Shown piece by piece: positions 1-4,766 of a DNA stretch of 4,766 nt (its first letter is position 1; each line of letters starts with the position of its first letter). The stretch lies in the IMG/VR virus record IMGVR_UViG_2778261165_000015; one strand, 5' to 3'. A program made the translations under genes and the position numbers. The notes beneath the pieces were generated by a model. The model did not search any database. It was given only the letters and a program-made list of their open reading frames with translations, and was not told the DNA's origin. This DNA comes from a virus. Its lineage: Duplodnaviria > Heunggongvirae > Uroviricota > Caudoviricetes.

Positions 1-110
1 TGGAGATCACTGAATAACAAAATGAGTCAAAAGTGATCTCCATCGATGTTATTCAGCGATCTGTTCAAATGTTATTACCCGATCTCGATGGAAGTTATTG
101 AGTGATCTCC
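1..110. repeat. Array of GATC-containing 15-bp repeats (consensus GTTATTnnnYGATCT): direct copies at 48-62, 71-85 and 94-108 phased at exactly 23 bp, one inverted copy at 4-18, and a 9-bp inverted repeat GGAGATCAC / GTGATCTCC at 2-10 / 33-41
   Basis: Read directly: gttattcagcgatct (48-62), gttattacccgatct (71-85), gttattgagtgatct (94-108); agatcactgaataac (4-18) is the reverse complement of the consensus. GATC at 5, 36, 58, 81 and 104. The 23-bp period is not a multiple of 3, so this is a DNA-level signal, not a protein repeat. Confidence 0.8.
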
Positions 111-1851
111 TTTCATGAAAATACGCATCTTTAGCTAACTCTGGTAATTTAGCTTGTGCTTCCATTCGTTCAGGTGTAGAAGCTAATCTCTCATAACCTG
201 CATAGATAGCACTACCAGCTAATAACATATTCATAGGGTTTAGTCTTGATGGTTTCCCATTCTTTCTATTCACGTTATCCGCTGTAGTATCAGCGACCTG
301 ACCTAATCTTGTGATAGCAGTCATAAGCCCGTAAATACTTCTGGTTACACCAACAACTTTATTCACAGCAATAACACCAGCCAAGACTTTTAAACTATTA
401 ATCAAGCCAGAACCTAAAGCATCAACAACTTTCTTTTGTTCATCGGTTAAACCACGGTAAGCCAATGTCACCTCATCAAAGAAACCTCTCACCTTGTAAG
501 AAATATCAGTCAATGAATCGACACCATGTGACATATCAGTCATCAAGCTACCAAGAGATTCACCAAGACTTTTACCACTTCCACCTAAACTGTTTAAAAG
601 CGTTGTTAGGCTTCTTGTGAAATCTTGAAGACCATTTTCAGAACCTCTGAAGATACTATCAAGCGTGGTATTCCAAGAGTTTTTCAGGTTCCCTAGTTGT
701 GCCTGAGTACTTTCTGAAATAGTTTTCCAGCCACCTTTAGCGGTGATTTGTTTATTCAGTTCCTGAGTGACCTTCTGAAGAGTATCGGCAGATTTTAAAG
801 CCCCCTTCTTCATGGCATCAAATAGCTCTTGTTCATTCCTTCCGATTGCTTTAGCGAATACCTGAACCATACCAGGAACAGCTTCAGCTAATTGCCCCTT
901 AAGCTCTTCAGCCATAACCTGACCCTTACCAGCCATCTGTGATAATGCTGTCAGTGCTCGCTTAATCTCTTCTTCACTTCTCCCCATCAGACGAGCATAG
1001 CCAATCATATTTTTAAAAAGTTCTTCAGAACCTTGAATGCCCATAGACTCTTTAGCTGAAGCACCAAAACCAGCAAACTGTGATTGCAGTTCAGCGATAT
1101 CTAAACCCGTTGTTTGAGCTAATGACTTTGTGAACTCTTTTACTTGAACTGCATCTTTATCAAATACGAAATCAATTGAACGTTCAGCACTTGCACGCTG
1201 TAAACCAATTTCCATAATCTTCTGATAACTGGCTAATACAGCCTGCATTGAGATAAATGCACCTGCTGTTTTAACTGCCGCTGAAGACAGGTTATCAAGA
1301 CTATTAGCTGCTCTGTCACCATTAATGCTGGTGGATGTATGACCTTTAGCTTTAGCAATTGCTTCTCTGACTGAAGCATTTAACTGAGCTAACTTCTCAT
1401 TGAATTTTGAAGAATCCATTGACCCAGCTTTAGCAGATAGCCCGTAAAACTGAGATTTGATGTATTTCTGCAAAATAGGGTCGAAGCCTTTCAGCTTGCT
1501 CATGTTAGCCTGATAAGCTGCTCTTACAGCTCGGTCACCAGTATTTACTCTTGGCTGTCTTGGCTGTCTAAGTGGCTTTAAAGTATCCTCAATTTCCGTT
1601 TTAATCTTAAACGCTTTAGTGTTTTTAAGACGCTGCTCAATCTTGGAAACAGTTTTATCGACATTCTTTTCCATTAGTTTGAGAGAATCATTTAAAGGCG
1701 TAGGATTCACTTTAAACGCCTTATTCAATCGCTTCTCAATTCGTGATGCTACCTGCATCGTTTGTTTCTCGGCTTTTTCCAGACCTTTTAAAACTTTCTG
1801 AGAGTTAAAACTTAACTCAATCAGAAAATCATCAACTTTAAACTGTGCCAT
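49..1851 (-). CDS. Phage tail tape measure protein, lambda gpH-like (600 aa)
   Basis: 600-aa ORF with TAA stop at 49-51. N-terminus MAQFKVDDFLIELSF resembles the lambda H N-terminus as I recall it (MAEPVGDLVVDLSL). Central segment ALTALSQMAGKGQVMAEELKGQLAEAVPGMVQVFAKAIG matches the tape-measure-domain signature from memory. Helical, Ala/Leu/Lys/Gln-rich composition and a hydrophobic C-terminal stretch fit the family. SD AAGAGGTG lies 11 nt upstream of the ATG; an in-frame TGA two codons upstream fixes the start. Not verified by search. Confidence 0.75.
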   Translation of the reverse strand: MAQFKVDDFLIELSFNSQKVLKGLEKAEKQTMQVASRIEKRLNKAFKVNPTPLNDSLKLMEKNVDKTVSKIEQRLKNTKAFKIKTEIEDTLKPLRQPRQPRVNTGDRAVRAAYQANMSKLKGFDPILQKYIKSQFYGLSAKAGSMDSSKFNEKLAQLNASVREAIAKAKGHTSTSINGDRAANSLDNLSSAAVKTAGAFISMQAVLASYQKIMEIGLQRASAERSIDFVFDKDAVQVKEFTKSLAQTTGLDIAELQSQFAGFGASAKESMGIQGSEELFKNMIGYARLMGRSEEEIKRALTALSQMAGKGQVMAEELKGQLAEAVPGMVQVFAKAIGRNEQELFDAMKKGALKSADTLQKVTQELNKQITAKGGWKTISESTQAQLGNLKNSWNTTLDSIFRGSENGLQDFTRSLTTLLNSLGGSGKSLGESLGSLMTDMSHGVDSLTDISYKVRGFFDEVTLAYRGLTDEQKKVVDALGSGLINSLKVLAGVIAVNKVVGVTRSIYGLMTAITRLGQVADTTADNVNRKNGKPSRLNPMNMLLAGSAIYAGYERLASTPERMEAQAKLPELAKDAYFHERRSLNNFHRDRVITFEQIAE

Positions 1852-1879
1852 TGTTCATATTTCACCTCTTTAAGCGTGA

Positions 1880-1934
1880 GCTACGTAAAAAATAATTTTT
1901 GGTGGGTATATCTGTTCAGAAGATTTCACGTAGC
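1880..1934 (-). promoter_or_regulatory. Imperfect 11-bp inverted repeat (GCTACGTRAAA) enclosing 33 bp, in the 5' untranslated region just upstream of the tape measure RBS
   Basis: gctacgtaaaa at 1880-1890 and tttcacgtagc at 1924-1934 (10/11 complementary). Would form an 11-bp stem with one G-U pair in the minus-strand RNA, or act as a palindromic operator in DNA. Confidence 0.4.
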
Positions 1935-1961
1935 ACATAGGATTCGATAGAAGACTATCTC

Positions 1962-2010
1962 ATATACAAAAAAGGGAGAAACTACCGATATCACTCGATA
2001 ATCTCTCCCG
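1962..2010 (-). terminator. Rho-independent terminator downstream of the 69-aa gene
   Basis: Minus-strand RNA reads GGGAGAG...UUCUCCC (stem from 1974-1979 / 2004-2009, with an inner UAUC/GAUA helix) followed immediately by UUUUUUGUAU (A-run 1968-1973 on plus). Sits ~25 nt after the stop of the 2034..2243 CDS. Confidence 0.6.
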
Positions 2011-2033
2011 TACTTTACCCAACCAATTCTTTT

Positions 2034-2243
2034 TTAATGTCTGACAAGATAATGTAGTTCCGTTTCACCTATGACTTGAGCATCAGAAGGAATACGGTCA
2101 ATACACCACTTTGGAATCTTGCGTGTTTTTGGTTTGCGTGAGGTGATAACTTGACGTTTGTTTTTAATTCTTAAGGCTGGATTGGCTTGTAACTTTAAGT
2201 TTTCACAAACAGACCGAATAGTCTCTAAACGTTCTTCAAACAT
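2034..2243 (-). CDS. Hypothetical small basic protein (69 aa)
   Basis: ORF with a strong SD (AAGAGGTG, 4-nt spacer, ATG). Lys/Arg-rich centre (RIKNKRQVITSRKPKTRKIPKW). Same frame as the upstream gene, separated by TGA and its own SD, so not a frameshift product. No family recognised. Confidence 0.6.
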   Translation of the reverse strand: MFEERLETIRSVCENLKLQANPALRIKNKRQVITSRKPKTRKIPKWCIDRIPSDAQVIGETELHYLVRH

Positions 2244-2267
2244 TAATCACCTCTTCTTAATTCATAA

Positions 2268-2978
2268 TCAAAGTGCTTTGCTGTATTTCTGAGAAATCTT
2301 AGTAAGCTGCTCAATATCAGCCTGCATAGCAATCTTCTTCTGTGATTCATATTCACTAATAATCGCTTTCATGCTATCAAGTTCTTTTTTAAGCTTTTGC
2401 TTTAACTTATCCAGCTTATCGGAGTAATGCTTAGTCAGATTAGCTTCAGCTAGCTGAAGAATCTCTTCATCTGTTTTATCAGTCATCAGAACAAATTGAC
2501 CAGAACCCCTTAATGCTTGTCTGACATCAATTAACCGGAACCCTTCAGGGATACTTTGAAGAACTTTAGGAACGTCTTCAATCGCTGTACCAAAACCATC
2601 ATTAAAGTTCCCTTCATAATAGATAAACGGGTTTGACTTAATCTCGTAAGCAATATCATATTCTGAAGGTTTCGAGGTTTCTTCGAAGTTCTTAACAGCA
2701 TCGTAAGCAATATCAAGTCTAAGACGCTGTGATTTTAAAGCTGGGTAATATTCACGCTCAAGATTAAATAGTGCTTCACTTTTGCAGATATCTGGCATTT
2801 CTTGAGGTTCAGGAGACACAAAGGTAATTTCCTTTGGTGACATCTTTAGCGATTGCTCAAGCTTAATTCTTTCATCGTGTTCTTTACGCTGAATAGCGAT
2901 AGCTGGATGTTCAGTCGTTGGTGACCAGTCACCGAAGCTATCAATCACTTTGCCATTAATGTAAATATCGTTTGTCAT
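2268..2978 (-). CDS. Hypothetical protein (236 aa) with a C-terminal coiled-coil-like region
   Basis: ORF with SD GAGG 9 nt upstream of the ATG. C-terminal ~60 residues are heptad-like and K/E/L/Q-rich (KLDKLKQKLKKELDSMKAIISEYESQKKIAMQADIEQL). No recognisable catalytic motif. Confidence 0.7.
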   Translation of the reverse strand: MTNDIYINGKVIDSFGDWSPTTEHPAIAIQRKEHDERIKLEQSLKMSPKEITFVSPEPQEMPDICKSEALFNLEREYYPALKSQRLRLDIAYDAVKNFEETSKPSEYDIAYEIKSNPFIYYEGNFNDGFGTAIEDVPKVLQSIPEGFRLIDVRQALRGSGQFVLMTDKTDEEILQLAEANLTKHYSDKLDKLKQKLKKELDSMKAIISEYESQKKIAMQADIEQLTKISQKYSKAL

Positions 2979-3003
2979 TATTTTTTTCCTCTAAGTGTGG
3001 TTA

Positions 3004-3081
3004 TTTCTTAATAGAGCACCTTCAACGCCAATACACTTAGAAGATGACTTAACGATTTATTAAAGATGCTCTATTAAGAAA
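3004..3081. repeat. Perfect 15-bp inverted repeat (TTTCTTAATAGAGCA) with arms at 3004-3018 and 3067-3081, 48-bp spacer
   Basis: Read directly; the reverse complement of 3067-3081 equals 3004-3018 exactly. Lies between hairpin H1 and the RBS of the 236-aa gene. Confidence 0.75.
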
Positions 3082-3110
3082 AGCCCTAAACATAATCTGT
3101 GAAGGGCTTT
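3071..3110 (-). terminator. Terminator-like hairpin H1 (AAAGCCCT / AGGGCTTT stem, 15-nt loop) followed by UUUUCUU on the minus strand
   Basis: Stem 3080-3087 / 3103-3110. The U-tract overlaps one arm of the 15-bp inverted repeat. Short stem, so termination is likely partial. Confidence 0.4.
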
Positions 3111-3170
3111 GAAGGTTTGCTTTATAACGTTAACGAAGTTTCAGGAAAAACTTTCTTTAAAAGCTCTGTT

Positions 3171-3209
3171 TAAAAACTCTTAAAGAAAGCCCTAATCATG
3201 AGTTAGGGC
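3171..3209 (-). terminator. Rho-independent terminator H2 (GCCCTAA / TTAGGGC stem, 7-nt loop) followed by UUUCUUUAAGAGUUUUU
   Basis: Perfect 7-bp stem at 3189-3195 / 3203-3209 with a U-rich tract on the minus strand. Shares the AAGAAA(A)GCCCTAA module with H1. Confidence 0.55.
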
Positions 3210-3255
3210 AAAGCTGTAAAGGATTCAAACGAATGAACAAAGACTTTTTGAGATA

Positions 3256-3280
3256 GCCTCTCAAGTTATATAAGAGAGGC
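3256..3280 (-). other. Stem-loop H3 (GCCTCTC / GAGAGGC, 11-nt loop) within the leader; no adjacent U-tract
   Basis: Perfect 7-bp inverted repeat read directly; flanks are not U-rich on either strand, so probably not a terminator. Confidence 0.4.
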
Positions 3281-3377
3281 CATGACGAAAAGCATTGCAC
3301 CTTTCCAACTCAGAATATCCATCCATCGGATTATTGAAAATATGATTTTAGGAAAAATTGCTCTTCCTATATATACA

Positions 3378-3406
3378 ATTATGTCATGCTCAAGGTTATT
3401 TGTCAA
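3378..3406 (-). promoter_or_regulatory. Near-consensus sigma70-type promoter: -35 TTGACA, 17-bp spacer, extended -10 TGaCATAAT
   Basis: Minus strand reads gctgTTGACAaataaccttgagcaTGaCATAATtgtatat. -35 is 6/6, spacer 17, -10 is 5/6 with a TG at -15/-14. Predicted start site near 3371, transcribing toward the terminators and the 236-aa gene. Confidence 0.55.
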
Positions 3407-3431
3407 CAGCTTTTAACAGATTGATAACAAT

Positions 3432-3497
3432 CTATACTTTAATAGACGCACCTGCAATCATACCAACCAATACAAAACAGATAATCACCAATTCCAT
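3432..3497 (-). CDS. Candidate 21-aa hydrophobic micro-protein (MELVIICFVLVGMIAGASIKV), a single predicted transmembrane helix
   Basis: Not in the supplied ORF track (too short). ATG overlaps the upstream TAA stop (TAATG). SD AAGGTGG sits 7 nt upstream. A 17-residue uninterrupted hydrophobic core is flanked by E and K. TAG stop at 3432-3434. Confidence 0.4.
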   Translation of the reverse strand: MELVIICFVLVGMIAGASIKV

Positions 3498-3820
3498 TAA
3501 TGCACCACCTTCGAATCCGTCACCAAAATATTGTCAGCGTACAAAATTGCTATAGCTGCCTTGAGATATCTTTCAGGGCTAACGCTGTATTTGTTCGTTT
3601 GCTCAATAACCAATCTTTTCATATTACTGTCTGTAATTGGTAACATCATTCGAGGCTCGTTAAACTCCACCGAGTGAATAAAGTCAGAGATGCTTTCCGC
3701 ATTATCAGCCATTAACTCTAACAACTTATCAAAGTCAATGCTAACACCTACATCAGTGAAAGCCTGAATCATCATGGCGGTGTCGGTATCAATAAAAATC
3801 TGTAGTGGGAAATTATTCAT
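3497..3820 (-). CDS. Hypothetical protein (107 aa from ATG 3820; the track's longer 144-aa form starts at 3931)
   Basis: ATG at 3820 has an AGGA SD with 8-nt spacing. The extra 37 codons upstream (3821-3931) are GC-richer with atypical codons (CCG, CTC, AGG), lack a good SD and overlap an inverted repeat, so the shorter start is preferred. No cysteines, no recognised motif. Confidence 0.55.
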   Translation of the reverse strand: MNNFPLQIFIDTDTAMMIQAFTDVGVSIDFDKLLELMADNAESISDFIHSVEFNEPRMMLPITDSNMKRLVIEQTNKYSVSPERYLKAAIAILYADNILVTDSKVVH

Positions 3821-3899
3821 TTTTAAAATCCTATAAAAACACATCTTAAATCTGCCAAAATAACCATTCTGAGGCCAGTAACCATGCGGGTTACAGAGG

Positions 3900-3946
3900 G
3901 AGTGAGACACCTTAGTAATAGGGTAGCTCATCTTTGAGTCTCACTC
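3900..3946. repeat. 9-bp inverted repeat GAGTGAGAC / GTCTCACTC with a 29-bp spacer, between the 128-aa and 107-aa genes
   Basis: 3900-3908 and 3938-3946 are exact reverse complements. No U-tract follows, so it looks like an operator or RNA structure rather than a terminator. Confidence 0.45.
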
Positions 3947-3958
3947 ATTCTCACAGAC

Positions 3959-4345
3959 TTACACAGACGCTTTAATCTTGTAGTATTGACTACGTGATAA
4001 GCCGTATTTCTCAGAAATATAACTTTGTGATTGTCCTTTGGTGATTGCATCAATGATTAAATCTTTATCGTATCTGTTACCGTTGGCTTTGTGCTTGTCA
4101 CTATTTTTAATAGAGTTGAAGTTCTCCATTAATTCAATGGCGTCTTTAAGGTCGCTTTCGTAAGCATAATCAAAACCTCTGATAAACTCGAAATCACCAT
4201 TATCTTTTTGTGCTTCAGCCCAGATATCAAATCTTGAGGCTAATTGCTGGTGGGTAAACTTGGGTTTATTGGTTTGTGTTACGTCTTTCCAGACTTTACC
4301 GTCAAATCTTACCAAATGGTCACGATGTTTATAAAAGTCATACAT
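3959..4345 (-). CDS. Hypothetical DNA-binding protein (128 aa) with a C-terminal resolvase/Hin-type helix-turn-helix
   Basis: Strong SD GGAGG 4 nt before the ATG, which overlaps the upstream stop (TAATG). C-terminus KGQSQSYISEKYGLSRSQYYKIK resembles the Hin/Gin recombinase HTH (GIGVSTLYRYF pattern). The ~95-aa N-terminal part is too short and lacks the serine-recombinase catalytic signature. Confidence 0.7.
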   Translation of the reverse strand: MYDFYKHRDHLVRFDGKVWKDVTQTNKPKFTHQQLASRFDIWAEAQKDNGDFEFIRGFDYAYESDLKDAIELMENFNSIKNSDKHKANGNRYDKDLIIDAITKGQSQSYISEKYGLSRSQYYKIKASV

Positions 4346-4581
4346 TAAACCTCCATCGCTAATTTGTGAATTTTGATACTTAGTAACCTTGCTAAATCCA
4401 GTCCAAAAGCATTTAAAGATTTCAGACTATCAAGGTCATCTTTCTTAATCCTGACATGGTGTCTTGCTGCCTCTAAACGACTATTAAGCAAATCCTGCTC
4501 GTTAATATCACGGTTAATTGCAAGCTTCATCACTGCTGAGTGCTGAGAGATCCCCTCATAATTTCCCCAAAGCGTAACCAT
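4345..4581 (-). CDS. Hypothetical protein (78 aa as drawn; start uncertain)
   Basis: ORF whose stop overlaps the start of the 128-aa gene. No convincing SD before ATG 4581 or the internal GTG/ATG at codons 17/18. The first 26 nt overlap the upstream partial ORF. Confidence 0.45.
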   Translation of the reverse strand: MVTLWGNYEGISQHSAVMKLAINRDINEQDLLNSRLEAARHHVRIKKDDLDSLKSLNAFGLDLARLLSIKIHKLAMEV

Positions 4582-4766
4582 GTGTGAATAAATTTTGAGC
4601 TAGTAGGGTTGCAGCCACGAGTAAGTCTTCCCTTGTTATTGTGTAGCCAGAATGCCGCAAAACTTCCATGCCTAAGCGAACTGTTGAGAGTACGTTTCGA
4701 TTTCTGACTGTGTTAGCCTGGAAGTGCTTGTCCCAACCTTGTTTCTGAGCATGAACGCCCGCAAGC
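4556..4766 (-). CDS. 3' end of a gene whose 5' part lies beyond the window (69 codons visible, C-terminus ...LFTHGYALGKL)
   Basis: Stop-free minus-strand frame from the window edge to TGA at 4556-4558, not in the supplied track because no start is in the window. GC content here is visibly higher (~47%) than the rest. Confidence 0.45.
   Translation of the reverse strand, partial: LAGVHAQKQGWDKHFQANTVRNRNVLSTVRLGMEVLRHSGYTITREDLLVAATLLAQNLFTHGYALGKL

What the first reader, a model, noticed from the sequence alone, without database searches (positions are those of the whole stretch)
49..1851. Tape measure protein is short and its last ~20 codons are encoded by the repeat array
At 600 aa it is shorter than lambda gpH (~850 aa). 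The conserved N-terminus and central domain are present, but the reading frame then runs into the phased repeats and stops. Either this is a genuinely short tail, or the 3' end of the gene has been overwritten by, or doubles as, a cis-acting site or element junction. A further minus-strand frame opens at ATG 43 and runs off the left edge, which could be the next tail gene.
Basis: inference. Interest (0 to 1): 0.5.

Follow-up and report, generated by a model that had tools for sequence, protein, structure and literature searches.

The report
IS-truncated phage tape measure gene
The "short" tape measure gene is a normal, longer gene cut by a common E. coli jumping gene (ISEc12), and the "phased repeats" it runs into are that element's transposase-binding end; this is ordinary, although the gene sits on a small island that shares tail genes with virulent Felix-O1-like phages.

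Summary
ORF 49..1851 (-) encodes 600 aa with a TMP_3 domain, and its last 25 codons plus stop lie in a repeat array. The cause is ordinary.

- **What the repeats are.** Window 1-127 is the left terminal inverted repeat of the IS21-family element ISEc12. It is 100% identical to about 5,100 copies in E. coli. Its repeats are phased at 23 bp, as described for IstA-binding repeats, and it ends in the family's CA.
- **Where homology stops.** Intact homologues are 679-725 aa. Their match to the window ends exactly at residue 574/575, which is window 128.
- **Proof of insertion.** A sister assembly encoding the identical 600-aa fusion shows the whole 2,581-bp IS flanked by a 5-bp target duplication (AAAGA). 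Beyond it lie the missing 119 TMP codons and then the next tail gene.
- **The ATG-43 frame.** It closes after 24 codons inside the IS. The next real gene is istA.
- **Right edge.** Window 4543-4766 is an IS10-like end. The window is a whole draft contig broken at repeats.

Context worth recording: the gene belongs to an island of about 11 kb with a large serine integrase. Its TMP and Dit-like genes are related to those of virulent Felixounavirus. This resembles the tail modules of Vibrio PLE satellites, but that reading is untested.

The parts
128..1851 (-). Native 5' part of the tape measure gene: codons 1-574 plus the first two bases of codon 575.
   Evidence: It matches Pfam TMP_3 and TIGR02675. 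It is 99% identical to residues 1-575 of the intact 694-aa TMP of E. coli ACN001, and the homology stops there. All E. coli hits begin at window 128.
49..127 (-). IS-encoded tail of the fusion ORF: the third base of codon 575, 25 codons and the TAA stop.
   Evidence: The translation is ...ELAK|D|AYFHERRSLNNFHRDRVITFEQIAE*. The sequence belongs to ISEc12.
1..127 (-). Left (istA-proximal) terminal inverted repeat of ISEc12 (IS21 family). The element tip is at window 127, reading TGCGTATTTTCATGAAAGGAGATC... on the minus strand.
   Evidence: It is 100% identical at about 5,096 places in 1,703 E. coli genomes, inside many unrelated genes. The full element with istA and istB is seen in L003 and L016. 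It is 2,581 bp long.
48..108 (+). Three full 23-bp-phased direct repeats (48-62, 71-85, 94-108), a partial fourth at 32-42, and one inverted full copy at 4-18. These are the presumed IstA-binding repeats, of the L1/L2 type.
   Evidence: Searches show GATC at 21, 44, 67 and 90 nt from the tip. In IS21 TIRs the direct repeats are 23 bp apart and are bound by the IstA HTH domains (PMC10122671).
128..132 (-). One copy of the 5-bp target-site duplication (AAAGA on the coding strand).
   Evidence: L016 reads ...GCTAAAGA|TGCGTA...IS...TACGCA|AAAGAGTCTGG. The uninterrupted ACN001 sequence reads GCTAAAGAGTCTGG.
1870..1936 (-). Conserved island element just upstream of the TMP ribosome-binding site: GTGCTACGTGAAATCT, a spacer of about 30 nt, then TTACGTAGCTCACGCTTAA.
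   Evidence: A second copy lies upstream of the Dit-like gene in intact islands. It is kept in divergent island variants. It is absent from the phage LinBro genome and from the phage collection.
1974..2009 (-). Intrinsic-terminator-like hairpin between the 69-aa ORF and the TMP gene.
   Evidence: One search reports a 15-pair stem with 6 GC pairs followed by a T run.
2034..2978 (-). Two island ORFs immediately upstream of the TMP gene: 236 aa (2268-2978) and 69 aa (2034-2243). Function unknown.
   Evidence: ORFs are listed. There are no Pfam, PHROG, NCBIfam, PADLOC or PDB matches. They are syntenic in all island variants.
4543..4766 (.). IS10-like (ISVsa5) terminal sequence forming the other contig edge.
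   Evidence: It is 99.5% identical to IS10 of phage CL707 and to ISVsa5 copies. Island homology ends at 4542.

Best explanation
The ORF is a chimera made by transposition. An IS21-family element, ISEc12 (2,581 bp, carrying istA and istB), inserted into codon 575 of a roughly 694-aa tape measure gene and duplicated 5 bp of target (AAAGA). Translation from the native start now runs across the junction. It reads 25 codons of the IS left terminal inverted repeat and meets a TAA, giving 600 aa. The 'phased repeats' are the 23-bp-spaced repeats of that end. In IS21 elements these are bound by the IstA transposase to build the synaptic complex. They have nothing to do with the phage tail. The last 119-120 residues of the protein are displaced to the far side of the IS. 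These include the terminal ...LLSSSYPEEE motif shared with Felixounavirus TMPs. I infer that the truncated product cannot work as a tape measure. The window is a complete short-read contig that stops in repeats at both ends: a 127-bp stub of ISEc12 on the left and IS10 on the right. The gene itself belongs to an integrative island of about 11 kb, not to a full prophage.
For: Shown directly: window 1-127 is 100% identical to annotated ISEc12 ends at about 5,100 places. The IS tip reads TG...CA and its repeats are phased at 23 bp, as published for IS21 TIRs (PMC10122671). Protein homology to intact TMPs stops at residue 574/575. Every E. coli TMP hit starts at window 128. L016, an independent assembly encoding the identical 600-aa protein, shows the complete IS. 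It has istA (rve) and istB (IstB_IS21), an AAAGA duplication on both sides, then 361 nt matching the 3' end of the ACN001 TMP, then the Dit-like gene. The window equals the whole contig NTPJ01000128.1 of GCA_002463735.1. Inferred: loss of function of the truncated protein.
Against: The far side of the insertion was seen in a sister assembly (GCA_029594295.1), not in the window's own assembly, whose contig stops inside the IS. No complete E. coli genome or GTDB representative carries this exact junction, so it is a lineage-specific event seen in only three contigs. Nothing here tests whether the fusion protein is made or is inactive.
Confidence: 0.95

Rival explanations
1. The protein is a genuinely short tape measure with a native C-terminus, specifying a shorter tail.
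For: The ORF is intact from ATG to stop, and its TMP_3 domain and hydrophobic segment are present.
Against: All syntenic homologues are 679-725 aa and diverge from the window exactly at the IS tip. The C-terminal 25 residues are encoded by a sequence found in thousands of unrelated loci. The missing codons lie beyond the IS.
Confidence: 0.01
2. The repeat array is a phage or island cis-acting site (att, cos/pac, or origin iterons) that overlaps the end of the gene.
For: Regularly phased repeats containing GATC superficially resemble origin iterons or recombinase binding sites.
Against: The array is absent from every intact copy of the island at this position. It is identical to the ISEc12 end next to istA. 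Its 23-bp phasing and CA tip match IS21 TIRs.
Confidence: 0.01
3. The junction is an assembly chimera: a repeat k-mer wrongly joined to the TMP contig.
For: The IS stub is exactly 127 bp, a common maximum assembler k-mer. The contig is bounded by repeats at both ends.
Against: A second, independent assembly has the same junction inside a contig, with the complete IS and a perfect 5-bp duplication. A chimera would not produce a target-site duplication.
Confidence: 0.03

Closest known systems
ISEc12 (IS21 family) insertional gene disruption in E. coli
   Same: The terminal sequence is identical. The element has the istA-istB organisation, TG...CA tips, multiple 23-bp-spaced terminal repeats and a 5-bp target duplication. 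ISEc12 is already reported as a frequent gene disrupter in E. coli (PMC10711316, listed).
   Different: Nothing mechanistic differs. Only the target (a tape measure gene at codon 575) is particular to this lineage.
Tape measure protein of Felixounavirus (e.g. Escherichia phage LinBro, 735 aa)
   Same: This is the best phage match. Intact island TMPs align end to end with it. The N-terminus is conserved (MAQFKVDDFLIEL vs MAQYTVDSFIVEL), as are the central TMP_3 core and the extreme C-terminus (LLSSSYPEEE).
   Different: Overall identity is only 28-34%, and the island proteins are 10-47 aa shorter. The gene is carried on a small integrative island with no sheath, tube, capsid or terminase genes. 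The window copy lacks the C-terminal 120 residues.
Tail module (TAC-TMP-BhuB) of Vibrio cholerae PLE satellites (Mathur, Boyd et al., Nature 2026, PMC12987554)
   Same: The logic is the same: a small island carries its own TMP and a hub-type tail protein, both homologous to those of a virulent myovirus. PLE integrases are also large serine recombinases (my own knowledge, not checked here). PLEs also carry a highly conserved sRNA. This island has a very conserved structured non-coding region.
   Different: Host and putative helper differ (E. coli and Felixounavirus, against Vibrio and ICP1). No sequence relationship to PLE genes was tested. No tail assembly chaperone was identified (one search gave an unusable model). 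Induction, replication and packaging are all untested. The Dit-like protein is far closer to the phage's (80% overall) than the 41% reported for BhuB.
Lambda gpH
   Same: Both are tail length tape measure proteins.
   Different: No specific relationship was found. TMP length varies widely among phages, so being shorter than gpH carries no information.

Membership tests
IS21 family insertion sequence (ISEc12) | Termini with 5'-TG...CA-3'. | tested here: met
   The window ends ...ATACGCA at 121-127. The left end of the full copy reads TGCGTATT and its right end reads ...AATACGCA.
IS21 family insertion sequence (ISEc12) | Terminal inverted repeats built of multiple direct repeats about 23 bp apart (transposase binding sites). 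| tested here: met
   Spacing is 23 and 23 nt. GATC lies at 21, 44, 67 and 90 nt from the tip. The motif occurs 4 times against 0.2 expected. The published description is in PMC10122671.
IS21 family insertion sequence (ISEc12) | Tandem istA (DDE/rve transposase) and istB (AAA+ helper) genes. | tested here: met
   These lie outside the window. L016 has a 513-aa protein with rve plus Mu-transpos_C_2 and a 248-aa IstB_IS21 protein directly after the 127-bp end. L003 is annotated as ISEc12 istA/istB.
IS21 family insertion sequence (ISEc12) | Short (about 5 bp) target-site duplication. | tested here: met
   AAAGA flanks the IS in L016. GCAGT flanks the copy in ATCC 11775.
Phage tail tape measure protein | Tape-measure signature domain. 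| tested here: met
   PF20155 TMP_3 at E=1.2e-19, above the cut-off. TIGR02675 at 47 bits. phrog_4036 at E=1.8e-74.
Phage tail tape measure protein | Full-length collinearity with the TMP of a recognised tailed phage, including both termini. | tested here: not met
   Intact island homologues meet this. The window copy stops at residue 574 and lacks the C-terminal 120 aa with the conserved terminal motif.
Phage tail tape measure protein | Location in a tail operon between chaperone genes and baseplate/hub genes. | tested here: inconclusive
   A Dit-like gene follows the TMP gene in intact islands. The two upstream ORFs have no detectable chaperone similarity. No tube or sheath genes are present.
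PLE-like phage satellite with its own tail module | Small integrative island with a large serine recombinase and no capsid, terminase, tube or sheath genes. | tested here: met
   Seen in relatives L002, L005 and L020 at 10.4-11.5 kb. The two integrase types are only 34% identical yet carry the same cargo. The integrase is not inside this window.
PLE-like phage satellite with its own tail module | TMP and hub-type protein homologous to those of a virulent helper phage. | tested here: met
   The TMP is 28-34% identical to the Felixounavirus TMP. The Dit-like protein is 66-80% identical, and about 520 nt of its gene is 93-95% identical to 216 phage records.
PLE-like phage satellite with its own tail module | Tail assembly chaperone encoded next to the TMP gene. 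| tested here: inconclusive
   The AlphaFold model of the 236-aa ORF has pLDDT 48.8 and is unusable. There are no family or PDB hits.
PLE-like phage satellite with its own tail module | Induction, excision, replication and packaging triggered by the helper phage, and satellite proteins in chimeric tails. | not testable with these tools
   This needs infection experiments. The only hints are a weak replication-initiator-like protein and no clear iterons.

The most novel reading that the evidence does not exclude
The disrupted gene belongs to a family of chromosomal islands of about 10-11.5 kb that I could not find described. The family is present in 405 of 5,426 complete E. coli genomes. These islands may be PLE-like satellites, or tail-interference elements, of virulent Felix-O1-like myoviruses. 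They carry a large serine integrase and a replication-initiator-like protein. They also carry their own divergent TMP, and a Dit-like tail protein whose N-terminal domain is kept about 97% identical to the phage's. On this reading they would build or poison chimeric tails, as shown in 2026 for Vibrio PLEs and phage ICP1. The window's copy would then be a natural knock-out, inactivated by ISEc12 and IS10.
Probability: 0.35. Interest if true: 0.65.

Novelty: already known. Interest (0 to 1): 0.2.

Why it matters
The finding itself matters little. It is a textbook case of an insertion sequence creating a truncated fusion ORF, and of short-read contigs ending in repeats. It is a useful caution against reading biology into gene ends at contig edges.

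The context could matter more. If the island is a satellite or a tail-interference element aimed at Felixounavirus, it would offer an E. coli model for satellite-encoded tape measures. It would also be a resistance determinant relevant to Felix-O1-like phages, a group I understand is used in therapy and biocontrol (not checked here).

Tried and rejected
1. A search for the exact IS/TMP junction in complete E. coli genomes and in GTDB representatives found nothing. The exact-protein look-up then found the source contig and a longer sister contig.
2. I tested whether the roughly 67-nt element upstream of the TMP gene is a copied Felixounavirus promoter. It has no match in LinBro and only chance hits in 50,697 phage records. 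Rejected.
3. I tested whether the 236-aa or 69-aa ORFs are tail assembly chaperones.
   - BLASTP against the LinBro chaperones was negative.
   - PDB sequence searches were negative.
   - The AlphaFold2 model had pLDDT 48.8, so no fold search was run.
   - The family has only 18 clusters at 50% identity, and none is annotated.
   - The test remains unresolved.
4. PADLOC found no known defence system in the island.
5. Rfam found no real hit in the window.
6. Contigs of 10-12 kb carrying the island looked like possible excised circles. The 11,474-bp Logan contig ends in short GC-rich, chromosome-like flanks rather than overlapping itself. This is uninformative about excision.
7. An iteron search near the replication-initiator-like gene found nothing convincing.
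8. A viral-contig scan with the replication-initiator-like protein found nothing.
9. Literature searches found no paper describing this island.
10. Most fetched loci were not available to Python, so a whole-genome tblastn of island proteins against LinBro could not be run.

Full report
**1. Observation.**
It carries a tape-measure signature, Pfam TMP_3, at residues 232-398 with E=1.2e-19. The left 110 bases of the window hold a repeat array. Direct units at 35-62, 58-85 and 81-108 are spaced 23 nt apart, with inverted copies at 2-18 and 94-110. The core GTTATTNNNNGATCT occurs four times, all within 4-108, against 0.2 expected; 0 of 200 shuffles reached four. The reading frame crosses three of these units before its stop at 51-49.

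**2. What the repeats are.**
Window 1-127 is 100% identical to a sequence found at about 5,096 places in 1,703 of 5,426 complete E. coli genomes. These copies lie on chromosomes and plasmids, inside many unrelated genes. In E. coli ATCC 11775 the 127 bases sit immediately outside the start of an annotated 'IS21-like element ISEc12 family' istA gene, which is followed by istB.

Read from the tip, the end is TGCGTATTTTCATGAAAGGAGATC... The other end of the element is its imperfect inverted repeat and finishes ...AATACGCA. GATC recurs at 21, 44, 67 and 90 nt from the tip. IS21-family ends are described in the literature as follows (PMC10122671):
- The terminal inverted repeats are made of several direct repeats (L1/L2, R1/R2).
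- Those repeats are 23 bp apart.
- Each repeat is contacted by the HTH domains of an IstA subunit.
- The element ends in a CA dinucleotide.
- Insertions carry 5-bp target duplications.

The 'phased repeats' are therefore the left end of ISEc12.

**3. Where the tape measure gene really ends.**
Every E. coli match to the rest of the window begins at window 128. The intact orthologue in E. coli ACN001 is 694 aa. It is 99% identical to the window protein over residues 1-575, after which similarity vanishes. The 679-aa orthologue of strain PS3Tanimalfeces2 behaves the same way. A further variant is 725 aa.

Codon 575 straddles the junction. Residues 576-600 and the stop are IS sequence.

**4. Proof of insertion.**
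An exact-sequence look-up of the 600-aa protein returned the window's own source and a longer contig from another assembly. The source is the complete 4,766-bp contig NTPJ01000128.1 of GCA_002463735.1. The longer contig is L016, from GCA_029594295.1.

In L016 the gene order is:
- the TMP fusion ORF;
- istA (513 aa, rve);
- istB (248 aa, IstB_IS21);
- a 114-aa ORF;
- the start of a Dit-like gene.

The sequence reads ...GCTAAAGA|TGCGTA[2,581-bp IS]TACGCA|AAAGAGTCTGGACTT... The uninterrupted ACN001 gene reads GCTAAAGAGTCTGGACTT. This is a simple insertion with a 5-bp duplication. The 361 nt beyond the IS match the ACN001 TMP 3' end as read, up to its stop.

Downstream of the break lie a transposase gene and its helper gene, then the rest of the gene.

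**5. The ATG-43 frame.**
In a full IS copy this frame reads MEITFDSFCYSVISINVIGTSQVC and stops. The annotated istA begins about 110 nt further in, in another frame. It is not a tail gene.

**6. The other contig edge.**
Window 4543-4766 is the end of an IS10-like element, ISVsa5. Island homology stops at 4542. The start codon of ORF 4345..4581 lies inside that IS, so it is a second IS-created fusion.

The left IS stub is exactly 127 bp. This is what a short-read assembler with a maximum k-mer of 127 leaves at a repeat (inference). A near-identical complete genome, Z1323CEC0004, shares the IS10 junction. There the TMP gene carries an IS3-family element, and an ISEc12 copy sits about 25 nt from its 3' end instead.

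**7. What the gene belongs to.**
The TMP gene is not in a prophage. In intact relatives it lies on an island of 10.4-11.5 kb integrated in yecE or between tonB and yciI. The island carries:
- a large serine recombinase at one end;
- a Dit-like 'baseplate' gene (PF21821);
- the TMP gene;
- the 69/71-aa and 234/236-aa ORFs;
- several small unknown ORFs, one of them with a C-terminal HTH;
- a weakly replication-initiator-like HTH_36 protein;
- a small resolvase/invertase at the other end.

Only the integrase, the Dit-like protein, the TMP and the initiator-like protein match PHROG families. PADLOC finds nothing. The two integrase types are 34% identical yet carry the same cargo. More divergent variants, with TMPs 47% identical, keep the gene order.

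The TMP family is present in 405 of 5,426 complete E. coli genomes, always on the chromosome. It also occurs in a Citrobacter genome. Window versus PS3T gives dN/dS of 0.23 with a mosaic pattern: codons 1-100 and 401-573 are 93-99% identical at nucleotide level, and codons 101-400 only 66-75%. This looks like a maintained mobile-element family rather than one decaying prophage remnant. This particular lineage, however, is riddled with IS insertions.

**8. Link to virulent phages.**
The closest phage TMPs are those of Felixounavirus, virulent myoviruses of about 86 kb. Identity is 27-28% over 100% of the query. The N-terminus and the extreme C-terminus (LLSSSYPEEE) are conserved. Some variants show about 75-80% identity in the N-terminal 45 residues and in the TMP_3 core.

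The island's Dit-like protein is 80% identical overall, and about 97% over residues 6-185, to the ORF immediately after the TMP gene of phage LinBro. About 520 nt of its gene is 93-95% identical to 216 Felix-O1-like phage records. No other part of the island matches any phage at that level. Base composition is also phage-like: 37.7% GC for window 128-4542, against 39.4% for the LinBro segment L006.

**9. Comparison with what is known.**
The event itself, ISEc12 disrupting a gene, is known and common.

For the island, the closest published logic is the PLE satellites of Vibrio cholerae. These encode their own TAC, TMP and baseplate hub, with 20%, 20% and 41% identity to the counterparts in virulent phage ICP1. 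They assemble chimeric tails. [quoted passage not shown]

The E. coli island shares the architecture but fails or cannot take several membership tests. No chaperone was identified, the evidence for replication functions is weak, and nothing is known about induction or packaging. I found no paper describing it. I therefore record the satellite or tail-interference reading as a hypothesis with a probability of about 0.35, not as the finding.

**10. Verdict.**
The 'short tail', 'dual-use cis site' and 'next tail gene' ideas are wrong.
- The feature is an ordinary IS-generated truncation at a contig edge, so interest is low.
- The surrounding island is the part worth a follow-up.

Noticed in passing
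window 4543-4766 and ORF 4345..4581 (-): The right edge of the window is an IS10-like (ISVsa5) end. The preceding 9 bp, TGCTGAGTG, resemble the IS10 target consensus (from my own knowledge). The ATG of the 78-aa ORF lies inside the IS, so this ORF is also an IS-created fusion of a 5'-truncated island gene.
   Followed up: partly
window 2979-3406 (- strand): A strong sigma-70-like promoter (TTGACA-17-CATAAT with TG, 3406..3378) is followed by about 400 nt of non-coding, strongly structured sequence (z = -3.8 and -5.5). It contains terminator-like hairpins at 3209-3189 and 3110-3080 and a hairpin with 22-nt arms at 3004-3081. It is much better conserved among island variants than the neighbouring proteins. 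Several stem pairs show compensatory changes, and insertions fall only in loops. There is no Rfam match. It could be an island sRNA or leader, or an origin or packaging site.
   Followed up: partly
window 1870-1936 (- strand); second copy at L005 8557-8623: A roughly 67-nt element (GTGCTACGTGAAATCT ... TTACGTAGCTCACGCTTAA) sits just upstream of the TMP gene. A second copy sits upstream of the Dit-like gene. It is conserved even in islands whose TMP is 47% identical, and it is absent from Felixounavirus LinBro and from the phage collection. It is likely an island-specific promoter or operator for the two tail genes. A terminator-like hairpin at 1974-2009 lies just upstream of it.
   Followed up: partly
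L005 about 7935-8452 (Dit-like gene, outside the window): About 520 nt of the island's Dit-like gene is 93-95% identical to 216 virulent Felix-O1-like phage genomes. The adjacent TMP is only about 28% identical to the phage's. This points to recent exchange with a virulent phage, or to strong constraint, on one domain only.
   Followed up: yes
TMP gene: window 128-1851 vs L002 7682-9721: The island TMPs are mosaic. The N-terminal 100 codons and the codons from 401 onward are 93-99% identical in nucleotides between variants. Codons 101-400, which include the TMP_3 core, are 66-75% identical with saturated dS. Overall dN/dS is 0.23.
   Followed up: partly
L001, L004, L007, L016 and hits H143, H155-H165: The island's TMP gene is interrupted by different insertion sequences in different lineages. 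These are ISEc12 (the window and L016), an IS3-family element plus ISEc12 (L001), IS100 (L004), an IS21-like element in Citrobacter (L007), and IS2 in the records H143 and H155-H165. Whether this exceeds chance for an AT-rich dispensable gene was not tested.
   Followed up: no
window 2268-2978 (-), 236-aa ORF: NCBI records name this protein 'transposase', but no Pfam, NCBIfam, PHROG or PDB evidence supports that. The family is narrow, with 18 clusters at 50% identity among 1.84 billion proteins. Its function remains unknown.
   Followed up: yes
L016 6648-6702: In the sister assembly the Dit-like gene departs from the ACN001/LinBro sequence after about 50 codons. The new sequence begins TGCGTATTCCGCTC..., which looks like the tip of another IS21-type element, and runs to the contig end. 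The island in this lineage seems to carry at least three IS insertions.
   Followed up: no
L020 1-25 and 11450-11474: An 11,474-bp metagenome-derived contig, seen in 10 samples, contains one whole island with only about 20-25 bp of GC-rich, chromosome-like flank at each end. This fixes the island size and suggests that occupied and empty sites coexist in those samples.
   Followed up: partly
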